Position numbers and translations under genes: made by a program. This document shows positions 1 to 52,610 of a stretch of DNA of 64,000 nt, piece after piece (the first letter of the stretch is position 1; every line of letters starts with the position of its first letter). The notes beneath the pieces are model-generated. The model had not been told where the DNA came from, did no database searches, and was given only the letters and a program-made list of their open reading frames with translations. The DNA comes from Eledone cirrhosa (taxonomy: Eukaryota), in assembly GCA_964016885.1 (NCBI GenBank), contig OZ024743.1, positions 10,478,001-10,542,000 of the forward strand, read 5' to 3'.

Positions 1-1531
1 ATAATGAACAAGAGCGGGCTGAGGACCGAACCTTGATGTACTCCTACTTGTATCTGGAATTTCTCACTAAACTCCATTCCTACCCTGACTTTACTGAGAG
101 TACCTCTGTACAAAGTTTGCACTGTCCTCACAAGCCATTCCTCAACACCTAGTTTCCTTAGGGACCACCAGATGACAGATCGGGGTACCCTATCAAAGGC
201 CTTCTCTAGGTCAACAAAGGCTAAGTATAGTGGCTTATTTTTCTCTAAGAACCTCTCTTGGAATTGTCTCACCAAGGAGAGGGCATCTGTTGTACTCTTC
301 CCAGGCACAAAAACAAACTGCATCTCATCTAGTTTGACCCTTTCTCTAATTAGTTGTGCTAATATCCTTTCTGCCACTTTCTGATCCATCAGTTTTATAC
401 CCCTATAATTGCTCCTCTCCAGAGCATCCCCTTTACCTTTGTAGCAATTTATGAGAATACTGCTGCACCAGTCTTTGGGTATGACACCACCATATATAGC
501 CTGATTGATGATGCGTGAAACCAGTTTAGTGCCTACGTCCCCTGATGCCTTCAGCATCTCACCAACTATTCCCGATGGTCCAGCAGCCTTACCATTTTTC
601 ATTTCCTTAATCACCTCTTGGACCCTATATTCTTGAATCTCAATAGCTGGTCCCTCTGTTGGATCTACTAAGGGTAATTTCTCTCTCTCCCATTCGTTCT
701 CCACATTCATTAGTCTCTCATAATGACATTTCCAGGCCTCCTTTTTCTGATCATTCATGACACTAAGTACACTGGCATCATTCCGGACACATTTATCTCC
801 AACAACATCCTGATTTGCATTGACACACTGCTTTGCAATGTGGAACACCGCACGCCTCTGATCTTCCCGTCGCAGAACATTGGCAAACCTCCTACTCTCA
901 ACCTCCCTGCGTGCTAAGTACACCTGACGTCTAGCTTCTCTCTTAGCGGCTGTATATTCTTCCCTACTCCCACCCTTTTTCCAAGCCTTCCATGCTAGTC
1001 TTTTGTCTCTAATGGCTTTATCTACTGTGTGGTTCCACCACCAGGTCACTCTCTGTCTGGTTGGAGCTCTGCTCCAGCCACAAGTTTCATCAGTAGCCTG
1101 CAGTAAGTTGTCACATAAGAAATTCCAGTTATTATCTATGTCATACGTCTCTAAATCGTCTTCTTTTTCGTCATATACATCTTGAAGGGCTTTCCTAAAT
1201 TTGTATTTTAGTGAAAGGTCTTTTAGCTTCCAGGCCTTTCTTCTCCACACTTTCCTGTATGTCTCATTCCATCTCTTGCTTACTGAGATATCACTAACGA
1301 CTAACCTATGCTGTGGGGTACATTCTTCCCCAGGGTATGCCTTGGTATTAGACACTATCTGCCTGTCCCACTGCCTAACTAGTAAGAAGTCAATCTGGCT
1401 TATGTGCTCGCCAGCTTTGTAGGTTATTACGTGATTGGCAGGTTTCTGGAAGTTTATGTTGCAAATAGTCAGTGTGGAAGTTTGTGTTGCAAATAGTCAG
1501 TGTGGAAGTTTGTGTTGCAAATAGTCAGTGT
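1..1531 (-). mobile_element. RTE-clade LINE fragment (end of endonuclease through RT), divergent from families A/B; runs off the window start
   Basis: The minus strand translates to [41 protein letters not shown] and PGEECTPQHRL. Frameshifts are present. The 5' end is truncated into (TA)n. Confidence 0.9.
1448..1531. repeat. 3 x 28-bp tandem duplication at the LINE 5' truncation junction
   Basis: ggaagttt(a/g)tgttgcaaatagtcagtgt at 1448, 1476 and 1504, followed by (TA)n. Confidence 0.9.
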
Positions 1532-3680: not shown

Positions 3681-6043
3681 AAGACTATCAAGTGGCCAGG
3701 AGGGAAGCTAGGAGACAAGTGTACTTCGCAAGAAGGGAAGCAGAGGAAAGAATGTTCAAGCATGTTCTACAACGTGAGGACCAAAAACGTGAGGTGTTCA
3801 GGATTGCTAGGCAATGTGTCAAGGAAAACAGTGATATTGTCGGGGAGAAGTGTGTACTTAACGATGACGGCGTACTTGCCATCACCGACGCCGATAAGAA
3901 GGTAGCTTGGAAGTGTCACTATGAAAGGCTACTAAATGAGGAGAATAAATGGGAGAAAGACAGTCTCCCCCACATAGACCCAATAGAGGGACCAGCAGTG
4001 TTAGTCGAGGGTAGTATAATAAGTAAGGCAATCAAAGATATGAAGACAGGCAAGGCGGCTGGGCCTTTGGAAATAGTTGCCGAGATGCTGAAGGCATCTG
4101 GTACGGTGGGACACACCATGGTCACCCGGATAGTCAACCAAGTCATACAGAATGGGGTTGTTCCGAAGGACTGGCGTAGCAGCATTATCGTTAACTGTTA
4201 TAAGGGTAAAGGAGATGCCCTAGATAGGAGTAACTATAGAGGCATTAAATTAATTGACCAGGTCATGAAGGTCACGGAAAAAGTAATAGCGCAACTAATC
4301 AGAGAGCGAATTGATCTAGATGAAATGCAGTTCGGGTTTGTGTCAGGAAAAAGTACCACAGACGCTCTTTTCATTGTACGACAACTACAGGAGAAGTACC
4401 TAGCTAAAAGTAAACCCCTATACTTAGCTTTCGTCGACTTGGAGAAGGCCTTCGACAGAGTCCCCCGTTCCATTATCTGGTGGGCTCTTAGAAAACTAGG
4501 TGTTGATGAATGGCTTGTGAGAGCTATACAAGCCATGTATAAAGAAACAGTCAGCAAGGTTAGAATTAACAACGAATATAGTGAAGAGTTTAGTGTAAAA
4601 GTTGGTGTTCATCAGGGCTCTGTTCTTAGCCCCCTGCTATTTATTATTGCCCTCCAGGCTATAACAGTGGAGTTCAAGACCGGCTGCCCATGGGAACTCC
4701 TATACGCAGATGATCTAACGCTCATAGCTGAATCAATGGCCGAGCTAGAGAAGAAATTCCAAACATGGAAGCACGGCCTAGAATCAAAAGGCCTTAAAAT
4801 TAACCTGGCTAAGACTAAAGTTCCAGTTTGTAAGAAAGAAAATAAGGCGGCGGTCCCCTCCGGGAAGTGGCCATGTGCAGAGTGTAGGAAAGGCGTAGGT
4901 AGAAATTCCATTTTGTGTCCCAAATGCAAAGTTTGGGTGCATAAAAGATGTAGTGGGATCACAGGTAAGCTAACTAAGAACATAGATTTTACATGTGGCC
5001 GGTGTTCTGGGGCAATAAGTAGCAGCAAGTGCCCACAAAATACTAGCTCTTTCAACTGCGCAGAGGGTTCTATAGAAATAGTGGACAGCTTCCGTTACCT
5101 GGGTGACAAAATCAGCAGTGGGGGAGGGTGCTCTGAAAGTACAGTAGCTAGAGTCAGAACTGGGTGGAAAAAGTTCAGAGAGCTTATACCACTATTAGCC
5201 GCTAAAGGGTTCTCCCTAAAAATGAAAGGCAGGCTGTACGATGCCTGCATACGAACAGCAATGTTGCATGGCAGTGAGACCTGGGCATTGTGTGCAGAGG
5301 ATATACGCAGACTAGAGAGAAACGAAGCTTGCATGCTCCGCTGGATGTGTAATAGTAATATACGTGAACAACAAAGCATAAACGAACTAAGGAAAAAATT
5401 AGAAATAAGAGGGATCAGATGTTGTTTACTAGAGAGAAGGCTACGTTGGTATGGTCACGTGATGCGCATGAAGGACGATAGCTGTATAACAAAGTGCAGG
5501 GCAATAAAGATAGACGGTAGCCACGGAATAGGCAGACCCCGAAAAACCTGGGACGAGCTGATAAACTCCGACCTCACACACTTACACCTCACCAAGACAA
5601 TGTCACTGGACCGAGACCTTTGGCGGTACTCAGTAATAGAGAAGACCCGCCTTACCTAAATACAAAGTAAAACCTACTACAGTCAGTAGGCATCTCTAAC
5701 AAAATACACCCCCGTCCCACCACCCCCACCCCATCCACACCGCCGCCTTCTATGTAAAGTTATGTTGGTGCCACACCATCCAGGCCGAAACAAATGAGAT
5801 CGTGTAGGTGTCACGACAAAAAAACACACAGTCCACGCTGTAATGTGGCCGTGTAGGCAACACGGTAAAAACCTCCCAGACCCACACTGTAAATGTGGTT
5901 GGTGTTAGGAAGGGCATCCAACTGTAGAAAACCTGCCAGACAGTCCTATGCGAGCAAGACAATCACTCTTGCCTCAAGTGGGAAAACCCCCGTCCAAACC
6001 CATGCAAGCGTGGAACACGGACGTTAAACGTTGATGATGATGA
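3681..6043 (+). mobile_element. RTE family A, 5'-truncated copy
   Basis: Uninterrupted RT ORF, ~370-nt 3' UTR, (GAT)n tail running into (TA)n. Confidence 0.95.
3692..5659 (+). CDS. RTE reverse transcriptase with inserted PHD finger (5'-truncated, no endonuclease)
   Basis: Motifs [57 protein letters not shown]. Confidence 0.85.
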
Positions 6044-6091
6044 TATATATATATAATTTAAACTGAATTTTCGTTTATCCTCTGACTAAAT

Positions 6092-22164: not shown

Positions 22165-22496
22165 GGAGGCACATTGCTTAGTGGTTAGAGCATTGGCCTT
22201 GCAATCGAAAGGTTGTGAGTTCAATTCTCAGACCGGGTGATGTGTTGTTTCCTTGAGCAAGACACTTTATTTCACATTGCTCCAGTTTACTCAGCTGTAG
22301 AAATGAGATGATAGGGACTGGGGTCCCCATCATTCCACTGCAAAGTGGTCGTGGAGGTGCCACGGCAAAAAAGCACCCAGCACTCACTGTAAATGAGGTT
22401 GGTGTTAGGAAGGGCATCCAGCTGTAGAAATCAAGCCAGAATCAGTTCCCGTGCCACCCTTGCAAGCAGGGAAAAGCGGACGTAAAATGATGATGA
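22165..22496 (+). mobile_element. tRNA-derived SINE with RTE-type body and tail
   Basis: A box (gcttagtggttag) and B box (gagttcaattc), then ccttgagcaagacact. The body matches the family B 3' UTR and the terminus matches the family C 3' end. Confidence 0.9.
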
Positions 22497-23326: not shown

Positions 23327-24603
23327 AAATATGCATGTGTATGTTTCTATTTACAGAATTTTCTTCGTGTCTACAAAAACCTAAATGTACACTCATGCTG
23401 GTAACATATACTCACTTATATTAATAAATCTTTAAACATTATATCTCATTTTACACATACACATACATGCACACATATACACATACATGGAGATGAAGAA
23501 AAATTCTGTGCACATAAACACACCCAGTTTCCTTTTCTTTTCAAAGCATCTACTTACTGTCCATATGATTGATATACTATTCAGCGTTGTTGCTCTATAT
23601 GCATTGAAACGGCCCATCCTCATAGATAAAGTGCTTTCACTTACTAAGTCTTGAAATGACTTCATAGAAATCATTGAAATGAAAATCAAAAAGAAGAGAA
23701 AAAGAAATTGATGAATAAGTGATATAAAAAAGTTAAAATAGCAACTGCAAAAACGTTGACGGAAAAACAAGATGAGGGAATTTTTAAAAAGGATGCAAAT
23801 AGCAAAAAGGAAAGACAATATTTTTGAGAAGTTTTGCTGAAGGACTCTTTGACCAGGAAAAAAATCTCTTCAGTATATTTGGTATTGAAGCTGTCACTTG
23901 TCAGATTAGAAAATGTCCCATTTTATGGCAATGTCTTTGACAAGTGATCACAAATGTTACATTTAGAGACAGTGGTCAATGACTCATACATTTTCAATAC
24001 CATTTCATGTTATTAACGTTAAATTGACATCTTCTCTGCCTCATGTATGAAAAAGATTTTTTTTTTCTTTCTACAAATAGAAATGTAGTTTTAGAGAATC
24101 TATGACAAAAGCTGACCTCAAAACAAACCACAATGTGAACTGGACTTGCATGCATTACCAAGACAATGAAGAGAGCTTATCAAATAGTTTAAAAAAATAT
24201 AAAATATAGTAAGTAGCATAAGCCTAGCAATGAATGTATTATTGGTTCATGTATTCATGTAACATGGCAGAGTGATTCCATCACATTTTAATATGATTAG
24301 AAGAAAAATGGTGGTGTTGTGTTGGGTGGAAATACAGTGGTGGTGAGGATAATATTGAAGATGGTCATGATAAGGATGATTATTGCATGACTAAAGTTGT
24401 ACTTTTTCAAACTAAATGAACTAGTGTATGTTCTTATAATGTGTAGTTAAAGTGTTTTAACAATGAGCTTACAACTAAGCAAATCGGTTCTCAAGGATTT
24501 ATTATGTAATACAGTATGTTTTCTAACATTTAATCATGCTTACATATATATGTGTGCGTGTGTACGTTTAATCATATACATGCCTTTGTGATGTATACAT
24601 ATA

Positions 24604-24654
<51 letters not shown>

Positions 24655-24658
24655 ATAT

Positions 24659-27600
24659 AATTTTCTGGGTGGGAAATGACGATGGGATGGGTGGTGTAGG
24701 TATACTATTAGCTGACAAGTGGGTAGATAAAGTAATCTCAGTGTACAGGGTAAATGCAAGAATCATTAAACTCAGACTAGTCCTGAATAAGACAATTACC
24801 ACAATAATATCAGCTTACGCACCCCAATCGGGGCTGCCAGACGAACTTAAGGATAGGTTTTACGAGTCCCTAATACACACTACTGCTCTAACAGACGACA
24901 AGGACTTCCTAATCATTGCAGGAGATTTTAACGGACACGTAGGTAAACACTGCGACGGCTTCAATAGAGTACATGGAGGCCATGGAGTTGGCACAAGGAA
25001 TGAGGAAGGATTCAGACTTCTAGAATTCTGCGACGCCAATGACATGTCGATATGTAACACAAACTTTAAAAAACCCGACAACCACCTGATCACCTATAGA
25101 TCAGGGGAGCACTCTAGTCAGTTAGATTTTATCCTCATCAGAGGACGTGACAGATGGACGGTCGTAAACACAAAAGCCTTCCCTAGTGAGGAATGTACAT
25201 CCCAACATAGCTTAGTTGTCAGCGACCTCACGGTCAGAACTAGACGAGCCCTGAAACAGAGGCCAACCTGGAGAAGAAAGATCTGGAAGCTGAAAGTCCC
25301 CTCAACCAGTAACAGATTTAAAGATATTTTACTCAACGCCTACGACAGTAAAGAAGAACAGATAGAGACATTTAACGTAGAAGAGAACTGGGAGTTCCTA
25401 AAAAATAACTTACTAGAGGCGACGGATGAGGTTTGTGGCTGGAGTAAGACCTCAAGCAGGAGGAGAGTGACTTGGTGGTGGAACAATAAGGTAGATGAAG
25501 CAGTCAAGGCCAAGAGACAGGCATGGAAAGAATGGAAGAACGGGGGGAGCAGGGTACATTACATAGAGACCAAGAGGGAAGCTAGGCGACAAGTATACTT
25601 AGCTAGGAGGGAAGCAGAGGATAGAAAATTCAAGCATGTTTTACAACGTGAGGACCAGAAACAGGAGGTATTCAAGATTGCGAGGCAGTGTGTCAGAGAT
25701 AGTTGTGATGTCATTGGAGAGAAGTGTATCCGGAATGATAAAGGTGAGCTTGCCCTCACAAGTGCTGAGAAGAAAGATGCATGGAAGAGTCATTATGATA
25801 GATTACTAAATGAGGAGAATGCATGGGAAGAAGAGACCCTACCCCACGTAGACCCTATAGAGGGACCAGCAGTACAAGTCAGCGGCAGCGTAGTAAGTAA
25901 GGCAATCAGAGATATGAAGATAGGGAAGGCAACCGGTCCATCGGGTATAGCTGCCGAGATGCTGAAGGCATCTGGGTCTGTAGGTCACACTATAACCACA
26001 CGTATCGTTAACCAGGTAATACTAGAGGGGGCCATACCAAAAGATTGGTGCAGTAGCATCATTGTCAACTGCTACAAAGGTAAAGGCGATGCACTAGATA
26101 GAGGAAACTATAGAGGTATAAAGTTGATGGACCAGGTCATGAAAGTAACAGAAAGAGTTATAGCACAGCTGATTAGGGACCGGGTGAATATAGACGAGAT
26201 GCAATTTGGGTTTGTTCCAGGGAAAGGCACCACTGATGCGCTCTTCCTTGTGAGGCAATTACAGGAAAAGTACCTAGCTAAAAGTAAGCCACTCTACTTG
26301 GCATTTGTCGACCTTGAGAAAGCCTTTGACAGAGTTCCACGTGCAGTAATCTGGTGGGCTCTTAGAAAACTAGGAGTAGATGAATGGCTTGTGAAAGCGG
26401 TACAAGCCATGTATAGGGGAGCAGTCAGCAAAGTTAGGATTGGCAATGAGTATAGCGAGGAATTTAGCGTACAGGTTGGGGTCCACCAGGGCTCTGTTCT
26501 TAGCCCTCTCCTGTTCATCATAGTCCTGCAGGCAATAACGGAGGAGTTTAAGACCGGATGCCCATGGGAACTCCTGTATGCTGATGACCTCGCACTCATA
26601 GCTGAATCTATGGTAGAACTAGAGAATAAATTCCAAACCTGGAAGCAGGGACTAGAGAGAAAGGGCCTCAAAGTCAACATGACAAAGACTAAGGTCCTTA
26701 TAAGTAGACGAGAAAACAGAACCCAGATCCCCTCAGGGAAATGGCCTTGCTCAGTATGTAGGAAAGGTGTAGGTAGGAACTCCATTCTTTGCCCCAAATG
26801 CAAACAATGGGTACACAAGAGATGTAGCGGGATCTCAGGAAGCTTAATTAAGAATGTAGGATTCACATGCAGCAGCTGTGCTGAAACAGCAAGCAAACAG
26901 CCACAGGAAACAAGTACCACCAATCTCTGGGAGGGCCCTGTAGAAACAGTAGACAGCTTCTGCTACCTAGGTGACCGAATTAGCAACGGAGGTGGGTGCT
27001 CAGAAAGTACAATAACTAGGGTAAGAACGGGATGGAAGAAGTTTAGGGAACTACTACCACTGCTAGCTGCAAAAGGCTTCTCCCTCAGAATGAAAGGCAG
27101 ACTGTATGATGCGTGTATCCGAACAGCGATGTTGCATGGTAGTGAGACCTGGGCGCTGAAGGTGGAAGACTTACGTAGATTAGAGAGAAACGAAGCCTGC
27201 ATGCTCCGATGGATGTGTAACAGTAATATACGTGAACGACAAAGCATAAATGAATTGAGAGAGAGACTGAGCATAAGAGGAATCAAATGCTGCGTGCAGG
27301 AGAGGCGGTTACGCTGGTATGGACATGTGATGCGTATGAAGGATGACAGCTGCATAAAAAGGTGCAGAGCACTAGAAGTTGATGGAAACCGCGGAGTGGG
27401 GAGACCCAAGATGACTTGGGATGAGGTGATAAAAGCCGACCTTACCCAACTACACCTCTCAAAGTCAATGACACACGACCGTGACTTCTGGCGTCACGCA
27501 GTAATACAGGGTACCCGACCTCCCATGGGTACATGCTGAAGCATATAAACAATATGCCCCCCCCCCCCACCGCAAGGTGGTCGTGGAGGTGCCACGGCAA

Positions 27601-27842
27601 AAAAGCACCCAGCCCACACTGTAAAGTGGACGTGTAGGCGCCACGAAAAAGCACCCAGCACTCACTGTAAATGAGGTTGGTGTTAGGAAGGGCATCCAGC
27701 TGTAGAAATCAAGCCAGATCAGTTCCTGTATGAGCAAGGCATGGTCAGCCGACCAGACACTGCCCACAACAGGACAACCCGTCTAACCCATGCTAGCGTG
27801 GAAGAACGGACGTAAAACGGTGATGATGATGATGATGATGAT
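24659..27842 (+). mobile_element. RTE family B, 5'-truncated within the endonuclease, otherwise intact
   Basis: Near-identical to 47170-50339. Starts in (TA)n and ends in a (GAT)n tail. Confidence 0.97.
24660..27539 (+). CDS. RTE APE-RT(PHD) ORF with the N-terminus missing; the start of the 995-aa call is read-through of TA repeat
   Basis: Open frame from FWVGNDDG to RPPMGTC*, with all RT motifs intact. Confidence 0.85.
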   Translation: MFWVGNDDGMGGVGILLADKWVDKVISVYRVNARIIKLRLVLNKTITTIISAYAPQSGLPDELKDRFYESLIHTTALTDDKDFLIIAGDFNGHVGKHCDGFNRVHGGHGVGTRNEEGFRLLEFCDANDMSICNTNFKKPDNHLITYRSGEHSSQLDFILIRGRDRWTVVNTKAFPSEECTSQHSLVVSDLTVRTRRALKQRPTWRRKIWKLKVPSTSNRFKDILLNAYDSKEEQIETFNVEENWEFLKNNLLEATDEVCGWSKTSSRRRVTWWWNNKVDEAVKAKRQAWKEWKNGGSRVHYIETKREARRQVYLARREAEDRKFKHVLQREDQKQEVFKIARQCVRDSCDVIGEKCIRNDKGELALTSAEKKDAWKSHYDRLLNEENAWEEETLPHVDPIEGPAVQVSGSVVSKAIRDMKIGKATGPSGIAAEMLKASGSVGHTITTRIVNQVILEGAIPKDWCSSIIVNCYKGKGDALDRGNYRGIKLMDQVMKVTERVIAQLIRDRVNIDEMQFGFVPGKGTTDALFLVRQLQEKYLAKSKPLYLAFVDLEKAFDRVPRAVIWWALRKLGVDEWLVKAVQAMYRGAVSKVRIGNEYSEEFSVQVGVHQGSVLSPLLFIIVLQAITEEFKTGCPWELLYADDLALIAESMVELENKFQTWKQGLERKGLKVNMTKTKVLISRRENRTQIPSGKWPCSVCRKGVGRNSILCPKCKQWVHKRCSGISGSLIKNVGFTCSSCAETASKQPQETSTTNLWEGPVETVDSFCYLGDRISNGGGCSESTITRVRTGWKKFRELLPLLAAKGFSLRMKGRLYDACIRTAMLHGSETWALKVEDLRRLERNEACMLRWMCNSNIRERQSINELRERLSIRGIKCCVQERRLRWYGHVMRMKDDSCIKRCRALEVDGNRGVGRPKMTWDEVIKADLTQLHLSKSMTHDRDFWRHAVIQGTRPPMGTC

Positions 27843-35624: not shown

Positions 35625-36099
35625 ACAGTAGGCATCTCTAACAAAATACACCCCCGTCCCACCACCCCCACCCCATCCACACCGCCCCTTTCAATGTAAA
35701 GTTATGTTGGTGCCACAAAATCCAGGCCGAAACAAATGGGATCGTGTAGGTGTCACGACAAAAAAACACACAGTCCACGCTGTAATGTGACCGTGTAGGC
35801 AACACGGTAAAAACCTCCCAGCCCCACACTGTAAATGTGGTTGGTGTTAGGAAGGGCATCCAGCTGTAGAAAACCCGCCAGACAGTCCATGCTGTAATGT
35901 GGCCGTGTAGGCAACACGGTAAAAACCTCCCAGCCCCACACTGTAAATGTGGTTGGTTTTAGGAAGGGCATCCAACTGTAGAAAACCCACCAGACAGTCC
36001 TATGCGAGCAAGACAACCACTCTTGCCTCAAGTGGGAAAACTCCCGTCCAAACCCATGCAAGCGTGGAACATGGACGTTAAACGATGATGATGATGATG
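35625..36099 (+). mobile_element. RTE family A 3' UTR-only copy with a 112-bp internal duplication
   Basis: 35771-35882 is repeated at 35883-35994. (GAT)n tail. Confidence 0.92.
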
Positions 36100-36102
36100 A
36101 AC

Positions 36103-39100
36103 ACTCTATCATTTTTTCCCCGAATCCAATCTTTGCCTTTCTACTCGATACTCTGTCGTATTTTCCAAAACAAATCTTGTATTTTTTGTTTTATGCTTGT
36201 TAAATTATGCCCAAAATACGGGGATCTTATTTAAACCTTACATTCTCGCTAACTACCCCAACCTTAATTCTGTCGTATTTTCAAAACAAAACTCCTTATA
36301 TATTTTTAAATATATTTTGTTATGCTGGCTAAATTATGCCCCAAATTTCGAGGACTGTATTTAAACTCTTAACCTCTGCTCCCTCCTATCTTCTCCTCCC
36401 CCTGCATCATGCTGGTTCGCGGCCACCCCCCCCCCCCCCTCTCTATCTCCATATATAAGATAAACCCTACAAGTACGAAAAAATCAGAACTGCCAATTCT
36501 ACTCCGGATGGCTGCTTTCATGGTATAATGTAACGTACAAATATTTCTTCATTCTTCTCACCATTTTAATTCCTTAGTCCATTCGTCATTCTCTATCATT
36601 TTTTTCCCCGAATCCAATATTTGCCTTTCTACTCGATACTCTGTCGTATTTTCCAAAACGAATCTTGTATTTTTTGTTTTATGCTTGTTAAATTATGCCC
36701 AAAATACGGGGATCTTATTTAAACCTTACATTCTCGCTAACTACCCAATATCCCTCCCACCCGCCCCCACGCACCACCATTATTACGTGGACCAATGATA
36801 AGTCAGAAGCCTATACTATCGCTTACCTGGTTGCCTTTCGATATGATGGATGGACTACGGAATTCTGGAGAGTTGAAAAGAAAAATCTGGACGCTCAGTG
36901 ACAATGCCAAAGATTAAGACAAATTCACCTCATGGACGAGAATGCAAGCACTCCTCCTCTTTGTTTCGGCCGCGGATGGCTAACATAACCCCATCTCCCC
37001 CATCCCCCCCCCCCCCCCCGCACCCCACCGCTCCCACCATCCAAACTCAATCCAAAACTTCAGAGTTGTTACCATGAATGTAGGCACCTTAAAGGGTCGC
37101 TCTAATGAGGTTGTAGAAATGCTTGAACGTAAGGAGGTCGATGTTTGTTGTATTCAAGAGACCAGGTGGAGGGGTGGGTCTGCTAGATTCATCGTGGGTA
37201 AAGAACGATGCTATAAGCTTTTCTGGGTGGGAAATGACAATGGGCTGGGTGGAGTAGGAATCATGGTAGCAGAAAAGTGGGCAGATAAGATAATAAGACG
37301 TAAATAGAGTGAACGACAGAATAATTAAAATAACACTTGTCCTCAATAGAACTACGGTGACAGTAATATCTGCGTACGCACCCCAATCCGGACTGCCCGG
37401 CACTATAAAAGACAGATTCTATGAGACACTGATGCTCACTACCTCCCAAATAACCGACAGTGACTATATAATTATTGCAGGCGACCTAAATGGTCACGTT
37501 GGACAACATTGTGACGGCTATGACGGAATCCATGGAGGCTATGGGTTTGGTATTAGAAATGATGAAGGCTCCAGAATCCTGGAATTCTGTGACGCAAATA
37601 ACCTAACTATCTGTAACACTAACTTAAAAAAACGAGACGATCACCTGATCACCTATAGATCGGGGGAACACACAACCCAGGTAGATTATATCCTTACCAG
37701 GAGACGTGACAGAGTGTCTGTTGTAAACACTAAATCCCTTCCCCATGAAGAATGCACGTCTCAACATAGACTCATAATCAGCGACCTCATAGTCAGGACG
37801 AGACGTATTCGACAACAGAAGAGGACTATCCTCAGGAGAAAAATATGGAAATTAAAGGACCCCACAGCCAGTCATAAATTTAAAAGCATATTACTTGATA
37901 CTTTTGATAGTAAGGAAGAGCAATTAGAGTCGTACAATATAGAGGAACAGTGGGAATTCCTGAAAGCTAACCTGCTGAAGGCGACAGATGAAACCTGTGG
38001 CTGGAGCAGGCCTATAGGCAGGAGGAGAGTAACTTGGTGGTGGAACAGTAAGGTGGAGAGGTCAATCAAGGCCAAAAAGCAGGCTTGGAAAGCATGGTGG
38101 GATGGGGGAAGTAGAGAAGACTATCAAGTGGCCAGGAGGGAAGCTAGGAGACAAGTGTACTTCGCAAGAAGGGAAGCAGAGGAAAGAAAGTTCAAGCATG
38201 TTCTACAACGCGAGGACCAAAAACGTGAGGTGTTCAGGATTGCTAGGCAATGTGTCAAGGAAAACAGTGATATTGTCGGGGAGAAGTGTGTCCTAAATGA
38301 TGATGGTGTACTTGCCATCACTGACGCTGATAAGAAGGTAGCTTGGAAGTGTCACTACGAAAGGCTACTAAATAAGGAGAATAATTGGGAGAAAGACAGT
38401 CTCCCCTACATCGACCCAATAGAGGGACCAGCAGTGCAAGTTGAAGGTAGTATAATAAGTAAGGCGATCAAAGACATGAAGACGGGCAAGGCGGCCGGGC
38501 TTTCAGAAATAGTTGCCGAAATGCTGAAAGCATCTGGCACGGTGGGACACACTATGGTCACCCGGATAGTAAACCAAGTCATACAGAATGGGGTCGTTCC
38601 GAAGGACTGGTGCAACAGCATCATCATTAACTGCTACAAGGGTAACGGTGATGCCCTAGATAGGGGAAACTATAGAGGCATTAAATTAATTGACCAGGTC
38701 ATGAAGGTCACAGAAAAAGTAATAGCGCAACTAATGAGAGAGCGAATTGATCTAGACGAAATGCAGTTCGGGTTTGTGTCAGGTAAAAGTACAACAGACG
38801 CTCTTTTTATTGTACGACAACTACAGGAGAAGTACCTAGCTAAAAGTGAACCCCTATACTTAGCTTTTGTTGACTTGGAGAAAGCCTTTGACAGAGTACC
38901 CCGCTCGATTATCTGGTGCGCCCTAAGAAAACTAGGCGTTGATGAATGGCTTGTGAGAGCTATACAAGCCATGTATAAAGAAACAGTCAGCAAGGTTAGA
39001 ATTAACAACTAATATAGTGAAGAGTTTAGCGTAAAAGTTGTTCATCAGGGCTCCGTCCTTAGCCCCCTACTATTTATTATTGCCCTTCAGGCTATAACAG

Positions 39101-40480
39101 AAGAGTTCAAGACCGGCTGCCCATGGGAACTCCTATATGCAGATGATCTAACGCTCATAGCTGAATCAATGGCTGAACTAGAGAAGAAATTCCAAACATG
39201 GAAGCATGGCCTAGAATCAAAAGGCCTTAAAGTTAACTTGTCTAAGACTAAAGTTCTAGTTTGTAGGAAGGAAAATAGGGCACCGGTCCCATCTGGGAAA
39301 TGGCCATGCTCAGTGTGTAGGAAAGGAGTAGGTAGAAACTCCATTTTGTGTCCCAAATGCAAAGTATGGGTACATAAAAGATGTAGTGGGATCACAGGTA
39401 AACTATCTAAGAATATAGATTTTATATGTGGTCGGTGCTCTGGTGCAATAAGTAGCAGCAAGTGCCCACTGAATACTAACTCATTCCAATGCACAGATGG
39501 TTCTATAGAAATAGTGGACAGCTTCCGTTACCTGGGTGATAAAGTCAGCAGTGAGGGAGGGTGCTCTGAAAGTACAGTAGCTAGGGTCAGAACGGGATGG
39601 AAAAAGTTCAGAGAGCTTATACCACTATTGGCCACTAAAGGGTTCTCTCTAAAAATGAAAGGCAGGCTGTATGATGCCTGCATACGAACAGCAATGTTAC
39701 ATGGCAGTGAGACCTGGGCATTGTGTGCAGAGGATATACGCAGACTGGAGAGAAACGAAGCTTGCATGCTCCGCTGGATGTGTAATAGTAACATACGTGA
39801 ACGGCAAAGCATAAACGTACTAAGGGAGAAATTAGAAATAAGAGGGATCAGATGTTGTTTACTCGAGAGAAGGCTATGTTGGTATAGTCACGTGATGCGC
39901 ATGAAAGACGACAGCTGTATAAAAAAGTGCAGGGCAATAAAAATAGACGGTAGCCACAGAGTAGGCAGACCCAGAAAAACCTGGGACAACTTGATAAATT
40001 CCGACCTCATACACACCTCTCCAAGACAATGTCACTGGACCGAGAGCTTTGGCGCTACACAGTAATAGAGAAGACCCGCCTTACCTAAGTACAAAGTGAA
40101 ACCTACTACAGTCAGTAGGCACCTCTAACAAAATACACCCCCGTCCCACCACCCCCACCCCATCCACACCACCCCTTCAATGTAAAGTTATGTTGGTGCC
40201 ACAACATCCAGCCCGAAACAAATGAGGTCGTGTAGGTGTCACGACAAAAAAACACACAGTCCACGCTGTAATGTGGCCGTGTAGGCAACACGGTAAAAAC
40301 CTCCAAGTTCCACACTGTAAATGTGGTTGGTGTTAGGAAGGGCATCCAGCCATAGAAAACCCGCCAGACAGTCCTATGCGAGCAAGACAACTACTCTTGC
40401 CTCAAGTGGGAAAACCCGCGTCCAAACCCATGCAAGCGTGGAATATGGACGTTAAACGATGATGATGATGATGATGATGA
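36103..40480 (+). mobile_element. RTE family A, full-length copy with frameshifts and stops
   Basis: 5' UTR with a ~158-bp direct repeat (36103-36260 / 36591-36748). ORF pieces 37074-37307, 37309-39012 and 39169-40065. 3' UTR and tail. Confidence 0.95.
36904..40088 (+). pseudogene. Disrupted APE-RT(PHD) polyprotein
   Basis: Frameshift near 37295, TAA at 39010, small deletions near 39040 and 40010. Confidence 0.9.
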
Positions 40481-45129: not shown

Positions 45130-45540
45130 TCATCATCATCATCATTTTACGTCCGCTTTTCCCTGCTTGCAAGGGTGGGACGGGTGCTATTCAGCACAGC
45201 ATCTCTCCACTTGTCACAGTCCTTCACCATCTCCTCCGTGAGTTTCATCGATCTAAGGTCTGCTCTCACCACCTCCGCCCATCTTTTTCATGGTCTACCT
45301 CTACTGCGTCTTCCTTCTACTGGGATTTCTTGGCACTTCTTTACCCAGCGGTCATCCTCCATGCACATCACATGTCCATACCATCTCAATCTTCTCTCCT
45401 GTACACCACAACTTATACCCAGTTTCTTTCTCAACTTCAACTCATCTACGCTTGGTCGTTCACGCACATTCACATTGCACATCCAACGGAGCATGCTTGT
45501 TTCATTTCTCTCCTGCCGTCGCATATCCTCTGCAGTTGCA
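45130..45540 (-). mobile_element. RTE family C 3' fragment
   Basis: Similar to 22797-23184, with the same terminus. Confidence 0.92.
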
Positions 45541-45597: not shown

Positions 45598-46688
45598 TTA
45601 ACCTAATTTAATCTAATTCATTCAATCTGAAAATATTGAAGAGATAAGACACTTTCCCATTCTTCTCTGCTAAAATGTATCACTAGAGCTGATTCCAATT
45701 TTCCCAGCCAGCCATCCATCTAATCTACGAAGGTATTTTAGCCTACATATTGTCGTTAATATTATGATGTTCCCTGCTGTATTAGCGTTAAATTTTCCCT
45801 GCTGTATTAGCGATAAATTTTCGAGGGTTTCTCTTAGTAGTTTTTTTCATGACGTTATTATTGTTAATTTTACTGATGTAGTATTAACTTGGATATTTAC
45901 CATGCGACCCTCAGTTCCTACCCCCCCCCTCTCTATGCACTTCTTTAAGGCTTACTACCCTGTCTTTAACCTAATTCATTCAATCTGAAAATATTGAAGA
46001 GATAAGACACTTTCCCATTCTTCTCTGCTAAAATGTATCACTAGAGCTGATTCCAATTTTCCCAGCCAGCCATCCATCTAATCTACGAAGGTATTTTAGC
46101 CTACATATTGTCGTTAATATTATGATGTTCCCTGCTGTATTAGCGTTAAATTTTCCCTGCTGTATTAGCGATAAATTTTCGAGGGTTTCTCTTAGTAGTT
46201 TTTTTCATGACGTTATTATTGTTAATTTTACTGATGTAGTATTAACTTATTAACTTGGATATTTACCATGCGGTATTCTAATCCTATTGTATCTCTCTCA
46301 GTTATTTACCATGCGACCCTCAGTTCCTACCCCCCCCCTCTCTATGCACTTCTTTAAGGCTTACTACCCTGTCTTTAACCTAATTCATTCAATCTGAAAA
46401 TATTGAAGAGATAAGACACTTTCCCATTCTTCTCTGCTAAAATGTATCACTAGAGCTGATTCCAATTTTCCCAGCCAGCCATCCATCTAATCTACGAAGG
46501 TATTTTAGCCTACATATTGTCGTTAATATTATGATGTTCCCTGCTGTATTAGCGTTAAATTTTCCCTGCTGTATTAGCGATAAATTTTCGAGGGTTTCTC
46601 TTAGTAGTTTTTTCATGACGTTATTATTGTTAATTTTACTGATGTAGTATTAACTTGGATATTTACCATGCGACCCTCAGTTCCTACC
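45598..46688 (+). repeat. Three tandem near-identical monomers (periods ~358 and ~409 bp) at the family B 5' end
   Basis: ctaattcattcaatctgaaaatattg begins at 45613, 45971 and 46380. Confidence 0.93.
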
Positions 46689-51894: not shown

Positions 51895-52610
51895 CTTCAT
51901 CAACATCATCTTTGTTTAACGTCCATTTTCCATGCTAGCATGGGTTAGAGGGGTTGTCCCATTAAAGGCAAGTTAGGTCAGGTTACCGTGTCTTGCTTAT
52001 ATAGAGCTGTTTCTGGCTAGCTTTCTATGGCTGGATGCCCTTCCTAATGCCAATCACATTTACAGTGTGTGGTGGTTGCTTTTTGTCATGACACCTACAT
52101 GACTACCATAGAGTATGAGCTGGGTACTTTTTGTTATGACACCTACATTACCACTTTACAGTGTGGGCTGGGTGCTTCTTGTTATGACACCTACATTACC
52201 ACTTTACAGTGTGGGCTGGGTACTTTTTGTTATGACACCTACATTACCACTTTACAGTGTGGGCTGGGTACTTTTTGTTATGACACCTACATTACCACTT
52301 TACAGTGTGGGCTGGGTACTTTTTGTTATGACACCTACATTACCACTTTACAGTGTGGGCTGGGTGCTTCTTGTTGTGACATACACACGACAACTTTACA
52401 GTGTGGCCTGGATGATTTTCTGTTGTGATACCAACATAACTTTACATTGTAAGGGTGGTATAAACAGAAGTGGGTGGGTGTAGGGGTGTGGTGGTGTATG
52501 CAAGGAAATAGAGTGGCTAAGGGTTGTCTATTAGATGTATGTTTAAGTCTATATGCATGGGAAGGCGTGTCTTCTGTACTACTACATAACACGAAAGATC
52601 TCAATCCTGT
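51895..52610 (-). mobile_element. Older RTE 3' end with an expanded module array in its 3' UTR
   Basis: RTE terminus at 51900-51950, GGAAGGGCATCC motif near 52040, and ORF-end-like sequence at 52545-52605. Confidence 0.8.
52078..52450. repeat. About 7.5 x 48-bp tandem repeat
   Basis: Unit ttttgttatgacacctacattaccactttacagtgtgggctgggtact. Confidence 0.93.

What the first reader, a model, noticed from the sequence alone, without database searches (positions are those of the whole stretch)
5755..5940. Variable-copy ~48-nt pseudoknot-plus-hairpin RNA module in RTE 3' UTRs, with covariation
Seen: each 3' UTR is built from a repeating unit of stem, G-rich loop, A-run, C-rich match to the loop, then a hairpin with a CUGUAA(A)-containing loop. 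Family A has TCGTG-taggtgt-CACGA-caaaaaa-acac (5800) and CCGTGT-aggca-ACACGG-taaaaa-cct (5849). Family B has CGTGG-aggtg-CCACG-gcaaaaaag-cacc (27582). The hairpin is CCACA-ctgtaaa-TGTGG in A and CTCA-ctgtaaa-TGAG in B. Stems change in compensatory pairs while the loops are retained. The array ends in a larger unit of the same plan (GGTTGG-TGTT-aggaag-GGCA-t-CCAACT-gtagaaaa-cct). Copy number is about 3 in A, 2 in B, 1-2 in the SINE and 0 in C. Inference: a selected H-type pseudoknot array acting as a nuclease block, stability element, protein-binding site or self-cleaving motif. The B unit superficially recalls P1 and the pseudoknot of pistol ribozymes, but the rest of that fold is not evident.
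Basis: partly seen in the sequence, partly recalled or inferred. Interest (0 to 1): 0.85.

Follow-up and report, generated by a model that had tools for sequence, protein, structure and literature searches.

The report
Relocated pseudoknot of RTE jumping genes
A short RNA segment predicted to fold into small knots lies just before the start codon of many animal jumping genes of the RTE group, but two families in this genome carry it near their tail instead, where it is still strongly conserved, so it likely works as a movable docking site for the element's own protein.

Summary
The repeat is real, but it is not primarily a 3' UTR array. It is an RTE retrotransposon 5' UTR element. Family C, scored as having none, carries it 59-81 nt before its ATG (26 of 30 copies), as do RTE elements of other animals. 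Families A and B lack it at the 5' end and carry it, fused to a second tail, in the 3' UTR; the SINE took it from B. Its core is 24/25 identical between A and B against 43% at silent sites, so it is selected in the new place. By eye it matches the BovB-type 5' UTR motif. Small-unit stems covary through few events; extra copies decay and grow into satellites. No Rfam match; not a pistol ribozyme. Most likely a binding site for the RTE protein (0.5); a translation element is the main rival. Folding and function are untested.

The parts
3683..5659 (+). 3' part of a family A RTE-type ORF (RT, then a PHD-like finger), ending at the stop codon before the 3' UTR
5760..5783 (+). decayed small unit (A0), resembling the single small unit of the family C 5' UTR
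   Evidence: sequence
5800..5827 (+). small unit A1: predicted H-type knot, stem 5800-5804/5812-5816, second helix 5808-5811/5824-5827, A-run between
5833..5848 (+). 4-bp spacer hairpin CCAC/GUGG
5849..5876 (+). small unit A2: 6-bp stem intact, second helix reduced to 2-3 bp
5882..5898 (+).
5900..5937 (+). large unit, the conserved core: predicted P1 5900-5903/5921-5924, bulge, P3 5908-5910/5917-5919, loop 5911-5916, A-rich linker 5925-5933, knot helix 5913-5916/5934-5937
5990..6045 (+). RTE 3' tail and (GAT)n end; a second, decayed tail start overlaps the ORF end near 5640-5655
27581..27715 (+). family B module: B1 (both helices intact), hairpin, B2 (one mismatch in each helix), hairpin CUCA/UGAG, large unit 27678-27715
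22165..22495 (+). SINE: tRNA-like head and CORE-like box (read by eye; ARAGORN calls no tRNA), B-type module, C-type tail
45165..45533 (-). 3' end of a family C copy: ORF runs into the tail, no module; full-length C with the module in its 5' UTR lies 10 kb past the window (L231:2649-2740, ATG at 2780)
52056..52450 (-). tandem run of about eight small units with a broken stem in an older element

Best explanation
The module is a piece of the RTE retrotransposon 5' UTR, predicted to fold into a compact pseudoknot, that has moved into the 3' UTR of families A and B and likely serves, in either place, as a binding site by which the element's own endonuclease-RT protein picks up its template RNA. 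Shown: it lies before the ATG in family C and in RTE elements of other animals, after the ORF in A and B, in the middle of the SINE, and its core is far more conserved than silent sites. Inferred: an ancestor of A and B captured a short '5' UTR piece + tail' element at its 3' end (a decayed tail start remains at the ORF end), then replaced its own 5' UTR; one small knot plus the large knot is the working set and spare units are slippage products. Predicted fold of the large unit: a 4-7 bp stem, a bulge, a 3-bp stem, loop bases GGC(A) paired to a downstream (U)GYY, with an A-rich linker crossing the stem. Inferred mechanism: the new protein binds the knot; next to the start codon that would also shut off further translation, while in a 3' UTR or a SINE it would only raise the chance of being copied.
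For: Position: 26 of 30 family C starts have the large unit 59-81 nt before the ATG, the other 4 are truncated within or past it; of 20 family B starts none has it in the 5' UTR (3 have hits that belong to neighbouring 3' ends) and 4 A-type starts lack it. Other animals: 5' UTR in L034, L042/L052, L043, L049, L058, L168; directly behind a twister-like ribozyme in L055 (E 3e-6, below gathering score); joined to an RTE tail or a tRNA-like head in L036, L038, L057, L176, L181, L182, L184. Selection in the 3' place: core 24/25 identical between A and B against 80/188 four-fold sites and 39/66 in the adjacent spacer. Fold: knot helix in 19 of 22 lineages, with 4 and 10 G-U variants at two of its pairs, in tail letters that my search patterns did not fix; family C, found through its protein, extends P1 to 7 bp and its predicted best nested fold is P1 + P3. 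Published consensus sequences read by eye (PMC5786205 supplement parts 1, 5, 6): the RTE-1_OAf 5' UTR core differs from this core by a 2-nt insertion; BovB families, SINE2-1_EC, SINE2-2_ACar, RTE1-N1_LA and RTE-2_DPl keep the layout with changes on both sides of P1, P3 or the knot helix. SINEs keep RTE 5' UTR pieces though they encode nothing (PMC5786205, PMC7245038). Analogy: A-clade R2 proteins recognise a 3' UTR pseudoknot (PMC12180492, passages).
Against: No binding, probing or expression data (no RNA run was listed). On the 22-row alignment P1 + P3 shows no significant covariation (56 of 500 shuffles reach 98.7% paired), and my patterns fixed most core letters in 18 of the 22 rows. The knot register was chosen per sequence after seeing the data; 3 of 22 fail (L201, L043, L035). 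The BovB comparison was not computed, and has misses (BovB_Es breaks two knot pairs; BovB_VA has an A-A in P3). The tight spacing to the ATG in most 5' UTRs fits a translation role at least as well. A+B as one clade has weak support on 102 residues (73/93; alternatives p-AU 0.15, 0.18).
Confidence: 0.5

Rival explanations
1. The large knot is a translation element: it would bind the 40S subunit or an initiation factor and place the start codon, letting uncapped, ribozyme-cut RTE RNA be translated; from a 3' UTR it would act as a 3' enhancer, and in SINEs it would tether the RNA to ribosomes making RTE protein.
For: The ORF's ATG lies 10-14 nt after the knot in 5 of 6 outside lineages (23 nt in the sixth) across an A/C-rich spacer, and 11-12 nt in BovB-type consensus sequences (by eye). 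Twister-cut Perere-3 RNA is translated (PMC8501958, passages). Pestivirus IRES function needs a pseudoknot upstream of the AUG (PMC2212637, passages); the about 11-nt spacing in HCV is recalled, Berry 2010 seen only as a reference title.
Against: Spacing is 31-44 nt in family C and about 140 nt in L201; A and B translate their ORF with no copy upstream yet keep the core at 96% downstream; no IRES domains II/III; no reporter data.
Confidence: 0.25
2. The knots are exonuclease blocks that would protect uncapped RTE RNA, and in the 3' UTR would leave a short stable tail-bearing RNA.
For: The module sits where a 5' end made by a ribozyme would need protection (L055); the folded R2 ribozyme is described as giving such protection (PMC13708176, passages). 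TA-flanked truncated copies begin at the first bases of P1 173 times against 40 three bases inside and 7 at 5923.
Against: 173 of some 10^5 copies is no pile-up; the three patterns differ in length and microhomology and there is no control upstream of the knot; no flaviviral xrRNA match in Rfam; SINE RNA is protected by its head.
Confidence: 0.1
3. The module, or small unit plus hairpin, is a self-cleaving ribozyme of pistol-like or new type.
For: Stem, knot loop and A-run resemble pistol P1; in L034 and L057 the small unit occupies the place that a twister-like RNA holds in L055.
Against: Cleavage in the 3' UTR would cut the ORF from the tail, yet most tail-selected A and B copies run through the module into the ORF; it would also cut the SINE from its promoter. 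Pistol's P2, 6-bp knot and G-U junction are missing; no Rfam ribozyme match at E up to 10.
Confidence: 0.05
4. The core is a DNA-level promoter or factor-binding site, or is carried along without function in the 3' UTR; the apparent folds are by-products of a palindromic minisatellite and CpG decay.
For: Core letters are nearly invariant rather than covarying; whole-region folding is no better than shuffles; the two CpG pairs of the small stem show no covariation (p 0.5, 0.87); small units form satellites with broken stems.
Against: The downstream GYY varies only in ways that keep G-C or G-U pairs on the sense strand and shifts position by several bases; the loop-closing pair of the small stem takes all four Watson-Crick forms; 96% against 43% excludes plain drift between A and B, and diverged spacers argue against a recent block swap.
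Confidence: 0.1

Closest known systems
RTE 5' UTR segments that form SINE middle bodies and bipartite non-autonomous RTEs (Kojima 2018, PMC5786205: main text parts 2-4 and supplement parts 1, 5, 6, 9 of 15 read; Kojima 2020, PMC7245038, passages); by eye the BovB / RTE-1_OAf / SINE2-1_EC / SINE2-2_ACar and HaSE1 / RTE-2_DPl segments
   Same: Conserved mid-5' UTR piece of RTE elements, kept in SINEs and joined to the RTE tail; near-identical core in RTE-1_OAf; ATG 11-12 nt downstream.
   Different: That paper gives no structure or function ('pseudoknot' 0 occurrences) and no case of the piece in the 3' UTR of an autonomous element. It is not the Ceph-domain segment printed there. The small upstream knot is extra.
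Pseudoknot-hinge-stem of A-clade R2 3' UTRs (PMC12180492, passages)
   Same: Small pseudoknot near the 3' end of a non-LTR retrotransposon RNA; model for protein recognition of the template.
   Different: Other clade and protein type, no sequence likeness seen; there the knot abuts the terminal stem, here 52-65 nt lie between knot and tail, and the knot is ancestrally 5'.
Pseudoknot of HCV/pestivirus IRES elements (PMC2212637, PMC5759354, passages)
   Same: Pseudoknot a short distance upstream of the initiator AUG.
   Different: No domains II/III here; the module also persists in 3' UTRs and SINEs.
Pistol ribozyme (PMC6154101, passages)
   Same: 5-bp stem whose loop forms a knot, followed by an A-run.
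   Different: No P2, knot helix 3-5 bp not 6, no P2-P3 junction with the G-U cleavage site; no Rfam match.
Twister and HDV-like ribozymes at RTE 5' ends (PMC8501958, PMC6765202, passages; Ruminski 2011 not held, seen only as cited)
   Same: Same UTR; a twister-like RNA abuts the large unit in L055.
   Different: They are neighbours of the module, not the module.

Membership tests
RTE-clade LINE (host element) | single ORF with APE endonuclease then RT, short tail ending in a microsatellite | tested here: met
   (GAT)n ends
RTE-clade LINE (host element) | RT groups with reference RTE elements in a tree | not tested
   trees held only session loci; the clade name rests on architecture, tail type and recall
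RTE 5' UTR-derived SINE body | segment lies in the 5' UTR of autonomous RTE elements | tested here: met
   26 of 30 family C starts; six outside lineages
RTE 5' UTR-derived SINE body | segment lies between a tRNA-like head and an RTE tail in a SINE | tested here: met
   window 22165-22495; 25 of 106 large-unit hits have a CORE-like box upstream; head read by eye, ARAGORN 0 genes
BovB / Bov-A-type 5' UTR motif | sequence and pairing homology to published consensus sequences | tested here: inconclusive
   by eye only from the PMC5786205 supplement; no BovB DNA could be fetched
H-type pseudoknot (small unit) | two helices with 1-2 nt first loop and A-rich 6-8 nt third loop | tested here: met
   A1, B1, C, L034, L057; reduced in A2 and B2
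H-type pseudoknot (small unit) | covariation in both helices after phylogenetic correction | tested here: inconclusive
   first helix 4 of 6 pairs change on both sides (0 of 500 shuffles, 9 related rows); four core pairs of the second helix show none, its fifth pair C-G to U-A; no correction for relatedness
Pseudoknot (large unit) | loop pairs with a downstream strand across lineages | tested here: met
   19 of 22, one-sided G-C/G-U changes only
Pseudoknot (either unit) | fold shown by chemical probing or structure | not testable with these tools
   needs SHAPE/DMS or NMR
Pistol ribozyme | stems P1, P2, P3 with a 6-bp knot to the P2-P3 junction | tested here: not met
   knot strand follows the A-run directly; 3-5 bp; definition from PMC6154101
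Pistol ribozyme | match to the Rfam model | tested here: not met
   none at E up to 10 in A, B, C modules
Self-cleaving ribozyme, any class | site-specific self-cleavage | not testable with these tools
   no raw RNA reads were offered
Exoribonuclease-resistant RNA | RNA 5' ends pile up at the 5' edge of the fold | tested here: inconclusive
   DNA truncation counts 173, 40, 7 without an upstream control
HCV-type IRES | pseudoknot a fixed short distance before the AUG | tested here: inconclusive
   10-14 nt in 5 of 6 outside lineages, 23, 31-44 and about 140 nt in others
HCV-type IRES | domains II and III; internal initiation in a reporter | tested here: not met
   no Rfam IRES match in the family C 5' UTR; reporter not possible
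R2 A-clade pseudoknot-hinge-stem | bound by the element's protein during priming | not testable with these tools
   analogy only

The most novel reading that the evidence does not exclude
RTE-clade retrotransposons from octopods and worms to ruminants share an undescribed 5' UTR pseudoknot (the core of Bov-A included) that recruits the element's protein or the ribosome from any position in the RNA. It would explain why RTE 5' UTR pieces, almost alone among LINEs, keep being captured as SINE bodies; here it has jumped to the 3' UTR of autonomous elements, freeing them to swap their 5' UTR.
Probability: 0.4. Interest if true: 0.78.

Novelty: new variant of a known kind. Interest (0 to 1): 0.6.

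Why it matters
Why SINE middle bodies come from RTE 5' UTRs is an open question in the one paper that documents it (PMC5786205), which offers no structure. A concrete fold with named pairs turns it into a compensatory-mutation experiment. The natural move from 5' to 3' UTR, with the core still under selection, separates position-dependent roles (promoter, upstream IRES, 5' processing) from position-independent ones. RTE elements are in use as RNA-only gene writers whose UTRs are tuned by screening (PMC13708176, passages), so a defined cis element has practical value.

Tried and rejected
Rfam: no match at gathering score in the window, only chance-level matches at E up to 10 in the A, B and C modules, none to a ribozyme in 15 of 30 family C start loci. 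One search used a structure set one column off and was redone. DNA search of the own genome with the module found nothing because common words are skipped. The 45 viral-contig matches to a 16-mer lack the flanks and are at about chance level; the 18 matches in prokaryote genome records are animal repeats, apart from none that looked bacterial. No BovB motif or RTE protein in viral contigs; no plasmid match. No RNA holder listed; contigs of four runs showed the same variants and nothing on expression or ends. A wider descriptor found no diverged large unit in 1.55 Mb held (3 non-canonical hits, 2 in a shuffle). Junctions of 31 distinct truncated A copies read by eye: 13 begin in the 4 nt just 3' of the knot, 7 in its 3' strand, 11 in the 22 nt further in; this would fit RT stalling at the knot but the pattern favours starts near its anchor, so I do not count it. 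Literature searches found no description of this fold or of its relocation; passages of PMC13282606, PMC9115989, PMC10085705, PMC4324840 and bioRxiv 10.1101/2022.11.04.512097 had none either. The library lacks most subscription papers, Repbase reports and patents, Ruminski 2011 was not held, and 11 of 15 parts of the Kojima supplement were only keyword-searched (its fig. S4 is not held as text).

Full report
Setting. The window lies at G000:C4:10478001-10542000 in a 3.0-Gb animal genome; its repeats recall octopod ones, which I did not check. It is packed with RTE-type LINEs (APE, RT, then a PHD-like finger) and SINEs, all ending in (GAT)n.

The observation. A stem / loop / A-run / complement descriptor finds 22 sites in the window against 0-3 in six shuffles, all copies of about four types. 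The genome holds 147,275 matches to a small-unit pattern and 90,649 to a large-unit 26-mer. Of 30 A copies chosen by their tail, 17 have two small and one large unit, 5 have a second large unit, the rest are truncated or deleted; 26 of 30 B copies have two and one. Rfam has no family for it and whole-region folding energy is ordinary.

Where the module comes from. A scan of metagenomes and of prokaryote genome records returned 33 and 18 stretches with the large unit, animal repeats by their content. In six lineages (L034, L042/L052, L043, L049, L058, L168) it lies 10-23 nt before the ATG of an RTE-type ORF; in L055 it follows a twister-like ribozyme (E 3e-6, below gathering score); in others it joins an RTE tail or a tRNA-like head. 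In this genome a full-length family C copy 10 kb past the window has one small unit, a hairpin and the large unit in its 5' UTR and none at its 3' end. Of 30 family C starts, 26 carry it 59-81 nt before the ATG and the other 4 are truncated within or past it. An older family (L201) has it 5' as well. Twenty family B starts and four A-type starts lack it in the 5' UTR. A and B are each other's closest relatives (74% against 69% and 68% to C), though the clade is weakly supported on 102 residues (73/93, alternatives not rejected). Their ORF ends keep a decayed tail start, and a full tail follows the module. I infer one capture of a '5' UTR piece + tail' element at the 3' end of the A/B ancestor, followed by loss or replacement of the old 5' UTR. 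The SINE carries B's module and C's tail.

Selection in the new place. Between A and B the 25-nt core is 24/25 identical, the first small unit 24/28, the spacer behind 39/66 and four-fold silent sites 80/188. The diverged spacer argues against a recent block swap.

The fold of the large unit. Instead a GYY, usually UGCY, at columns 35-41 of an otherwise variable tail can pair with GGC(A) in 19 of 22 (shuffle mean 4.9, 0 of 5000), varying only between G-C and G-U; L201, L043 and L035 fail. These tail letters were not fixed by my patterns, but the register was picked per sequence. Patterns fixed most core letters in 18 of 22 rows, so this comparison is weak. Family C, found by protein, extends P1 to 7 bp and folds as P1 + P3. 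Published consensus sequences, read by eye from the supplement of PMC5786205, show the same layout: the RTE-1_OAf 5' UTR core differs from this one by a 2-nt insertion, BovB_Ac against BovB_VA changes P1 on both sides, SINE2-1_EC changes the knot helix on both sides, RTE1-N1_LA and RTE-2_DPl change P3 on both sides, and an in-frame ATG follows 11-12 nt later in BovB types. BovB_Es breaks two knot pairs and BovB_VA has a mismatch in P3. None of this was computed.

The small unit. It reads as a minimal H-type knot: 5-6 bp stem, 1-2 nt first loop, GGUG pairing with CACY, A-run of mostly 6-7 nt. On nine unit types (seven from this genome, L034, L057) 4 of 6 stem pairs change on both sides and the closing pair takes all four Watson-Crick forms (0 of 500 shuffles); the four core pairs of the second helix show no two-sided change. 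In 1.34 Mb of this genome, 266 of 312 profile hits could be parsed into 137 types, 12 seen at two or more loci; only the outer and closing stem pairs and the fifth pair of the second helix beat shuffling, the two CpG pairs do not. These are a handful of events among relatives. A2 keeps 2 of 5 second-helix pairs, B2 has a mismatch, and arrays of 50 and 35 units with broken stems occur (L064, L240). Each family keeps one intact small knot (A1, B1, C). Outside this genome the small unit was seen in 2 of 18 lineages, and the CUGUAAA loop in none. So the small knot is an accessory, and copy number is best explained by slippage.

How it likely works. A role that survives a move from 5' UTR to 3' UTR to SINE body cannot depend on lying upstream of the ORF or at the RNA's 5' end. 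Self-cleavage in the 3' UTR would cut the ORF from the tail, yet most copies run through. Binding of the element's own protein fits all three places, fits the repeated capture of RTE 5' UTR pieces by SINEs (PMC5786205, PMC7245038), and has a precedent in the 3' UTR pseudoknot that A-clade R2 proteins recognise (PMC12180492, passages). I put it at 0.5. The short spacing to the ATG could reflect feedback on translation by the bound protein, or a ribosome- or factor-binding role (0.25; compare PMC8501958, PMC2212637). Nuclease block 0.1, DNA-level or passive 0.1, ribozyme 0.05. Shown: positions, copy numbers, conservation, pairing potential. Inferred: the fold, the single capture, the link to BovB, every statement on function.

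Novelty. The sequence class, RTE 5' UTR pieces reused by SINEs, is known. Ten literature searches found no account of its pseudoknot or of its move to the 3' UTR of an autonomous element; the library omits most subscription papers, Repbase reports and patents. Verdict: new variant of a known kind, interest 0.6.

Noticed in passing
L043:about 185-270 (+); also L038, L176, L031-type and L172-type loci, just 5' of the large unit: A different conserved element, by eye a multi-stem junction with a GAAUA segment and a short hairpin ending in GGCGAC-UAA, precedes the large unit in several animal lineages, where L055 has a twister-like RNA. No Rfam match. A candidate ribozyme.
   Followed up: no
L231:2560-2655: Family C 5' UTR upstream of the small unit: a T run, a CUGUAAA hairpin, then a 7-bp stem enclosing CCCU and a short hairpin, with a possible knot to an upstream AGGG. 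No Rfam match. Several copies begin at the T run, others extend more than 1 kb further.
   Followed up: partly
L055:545-601: Twister-P1-like ribozyme (41 bits, E 3e-6, below gathering score) ending at the first base of the large unit.
   Followed up: partly
window 3683-5659, 24534-27539, 39013-40065: A PHD-like finger follows the RT domain in families A and B (Pfam PF00628, E down to 7e-7); a similar cysteine pattern is in family C. A possible RNA- or chromatin-binding part.
   Followed up: no
L064 (G000:C1:5000001-5010000), L240, window 52056-52450; L106:2250-2560: Satellite-like arrays of the small unit (50, 35 and about 8 units) with broken stems; in L106 a decayed tandem run of the large unit plus hairpin.
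   Followed up: partly
window 22165-22495; L348: The SINE joins family B's module to family C's tail; L348 looks like the same head with a B tail.
   Followed up: partly
window 35626-36100: A-type copy with hairpin + A2 + large unit duplicated (112-nt period); 5 of 30 tail-selected A copies share this form.
   Followed up: partly
window 45607-46688: Family B 5' region is built of AT-rich tandem repeats of about 360-410 nt ahead of a unique stretch of about 290 nt; other copies carry a different short-period repeat there.
   Followed up: no
L168-L185: Records filed as bacterial or archaeal genome bins carry animal SINE and RTE sequence, some in contigs of 185-207 kb.
   Followed up: partly
L058, 5' of the large unit: Another H-type knot with a UAAAA linker (5-bp stem, 5-bp second helix) lies about 130 nt upstream in this RTE 5' UTR (by eye).
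   Followed up: no
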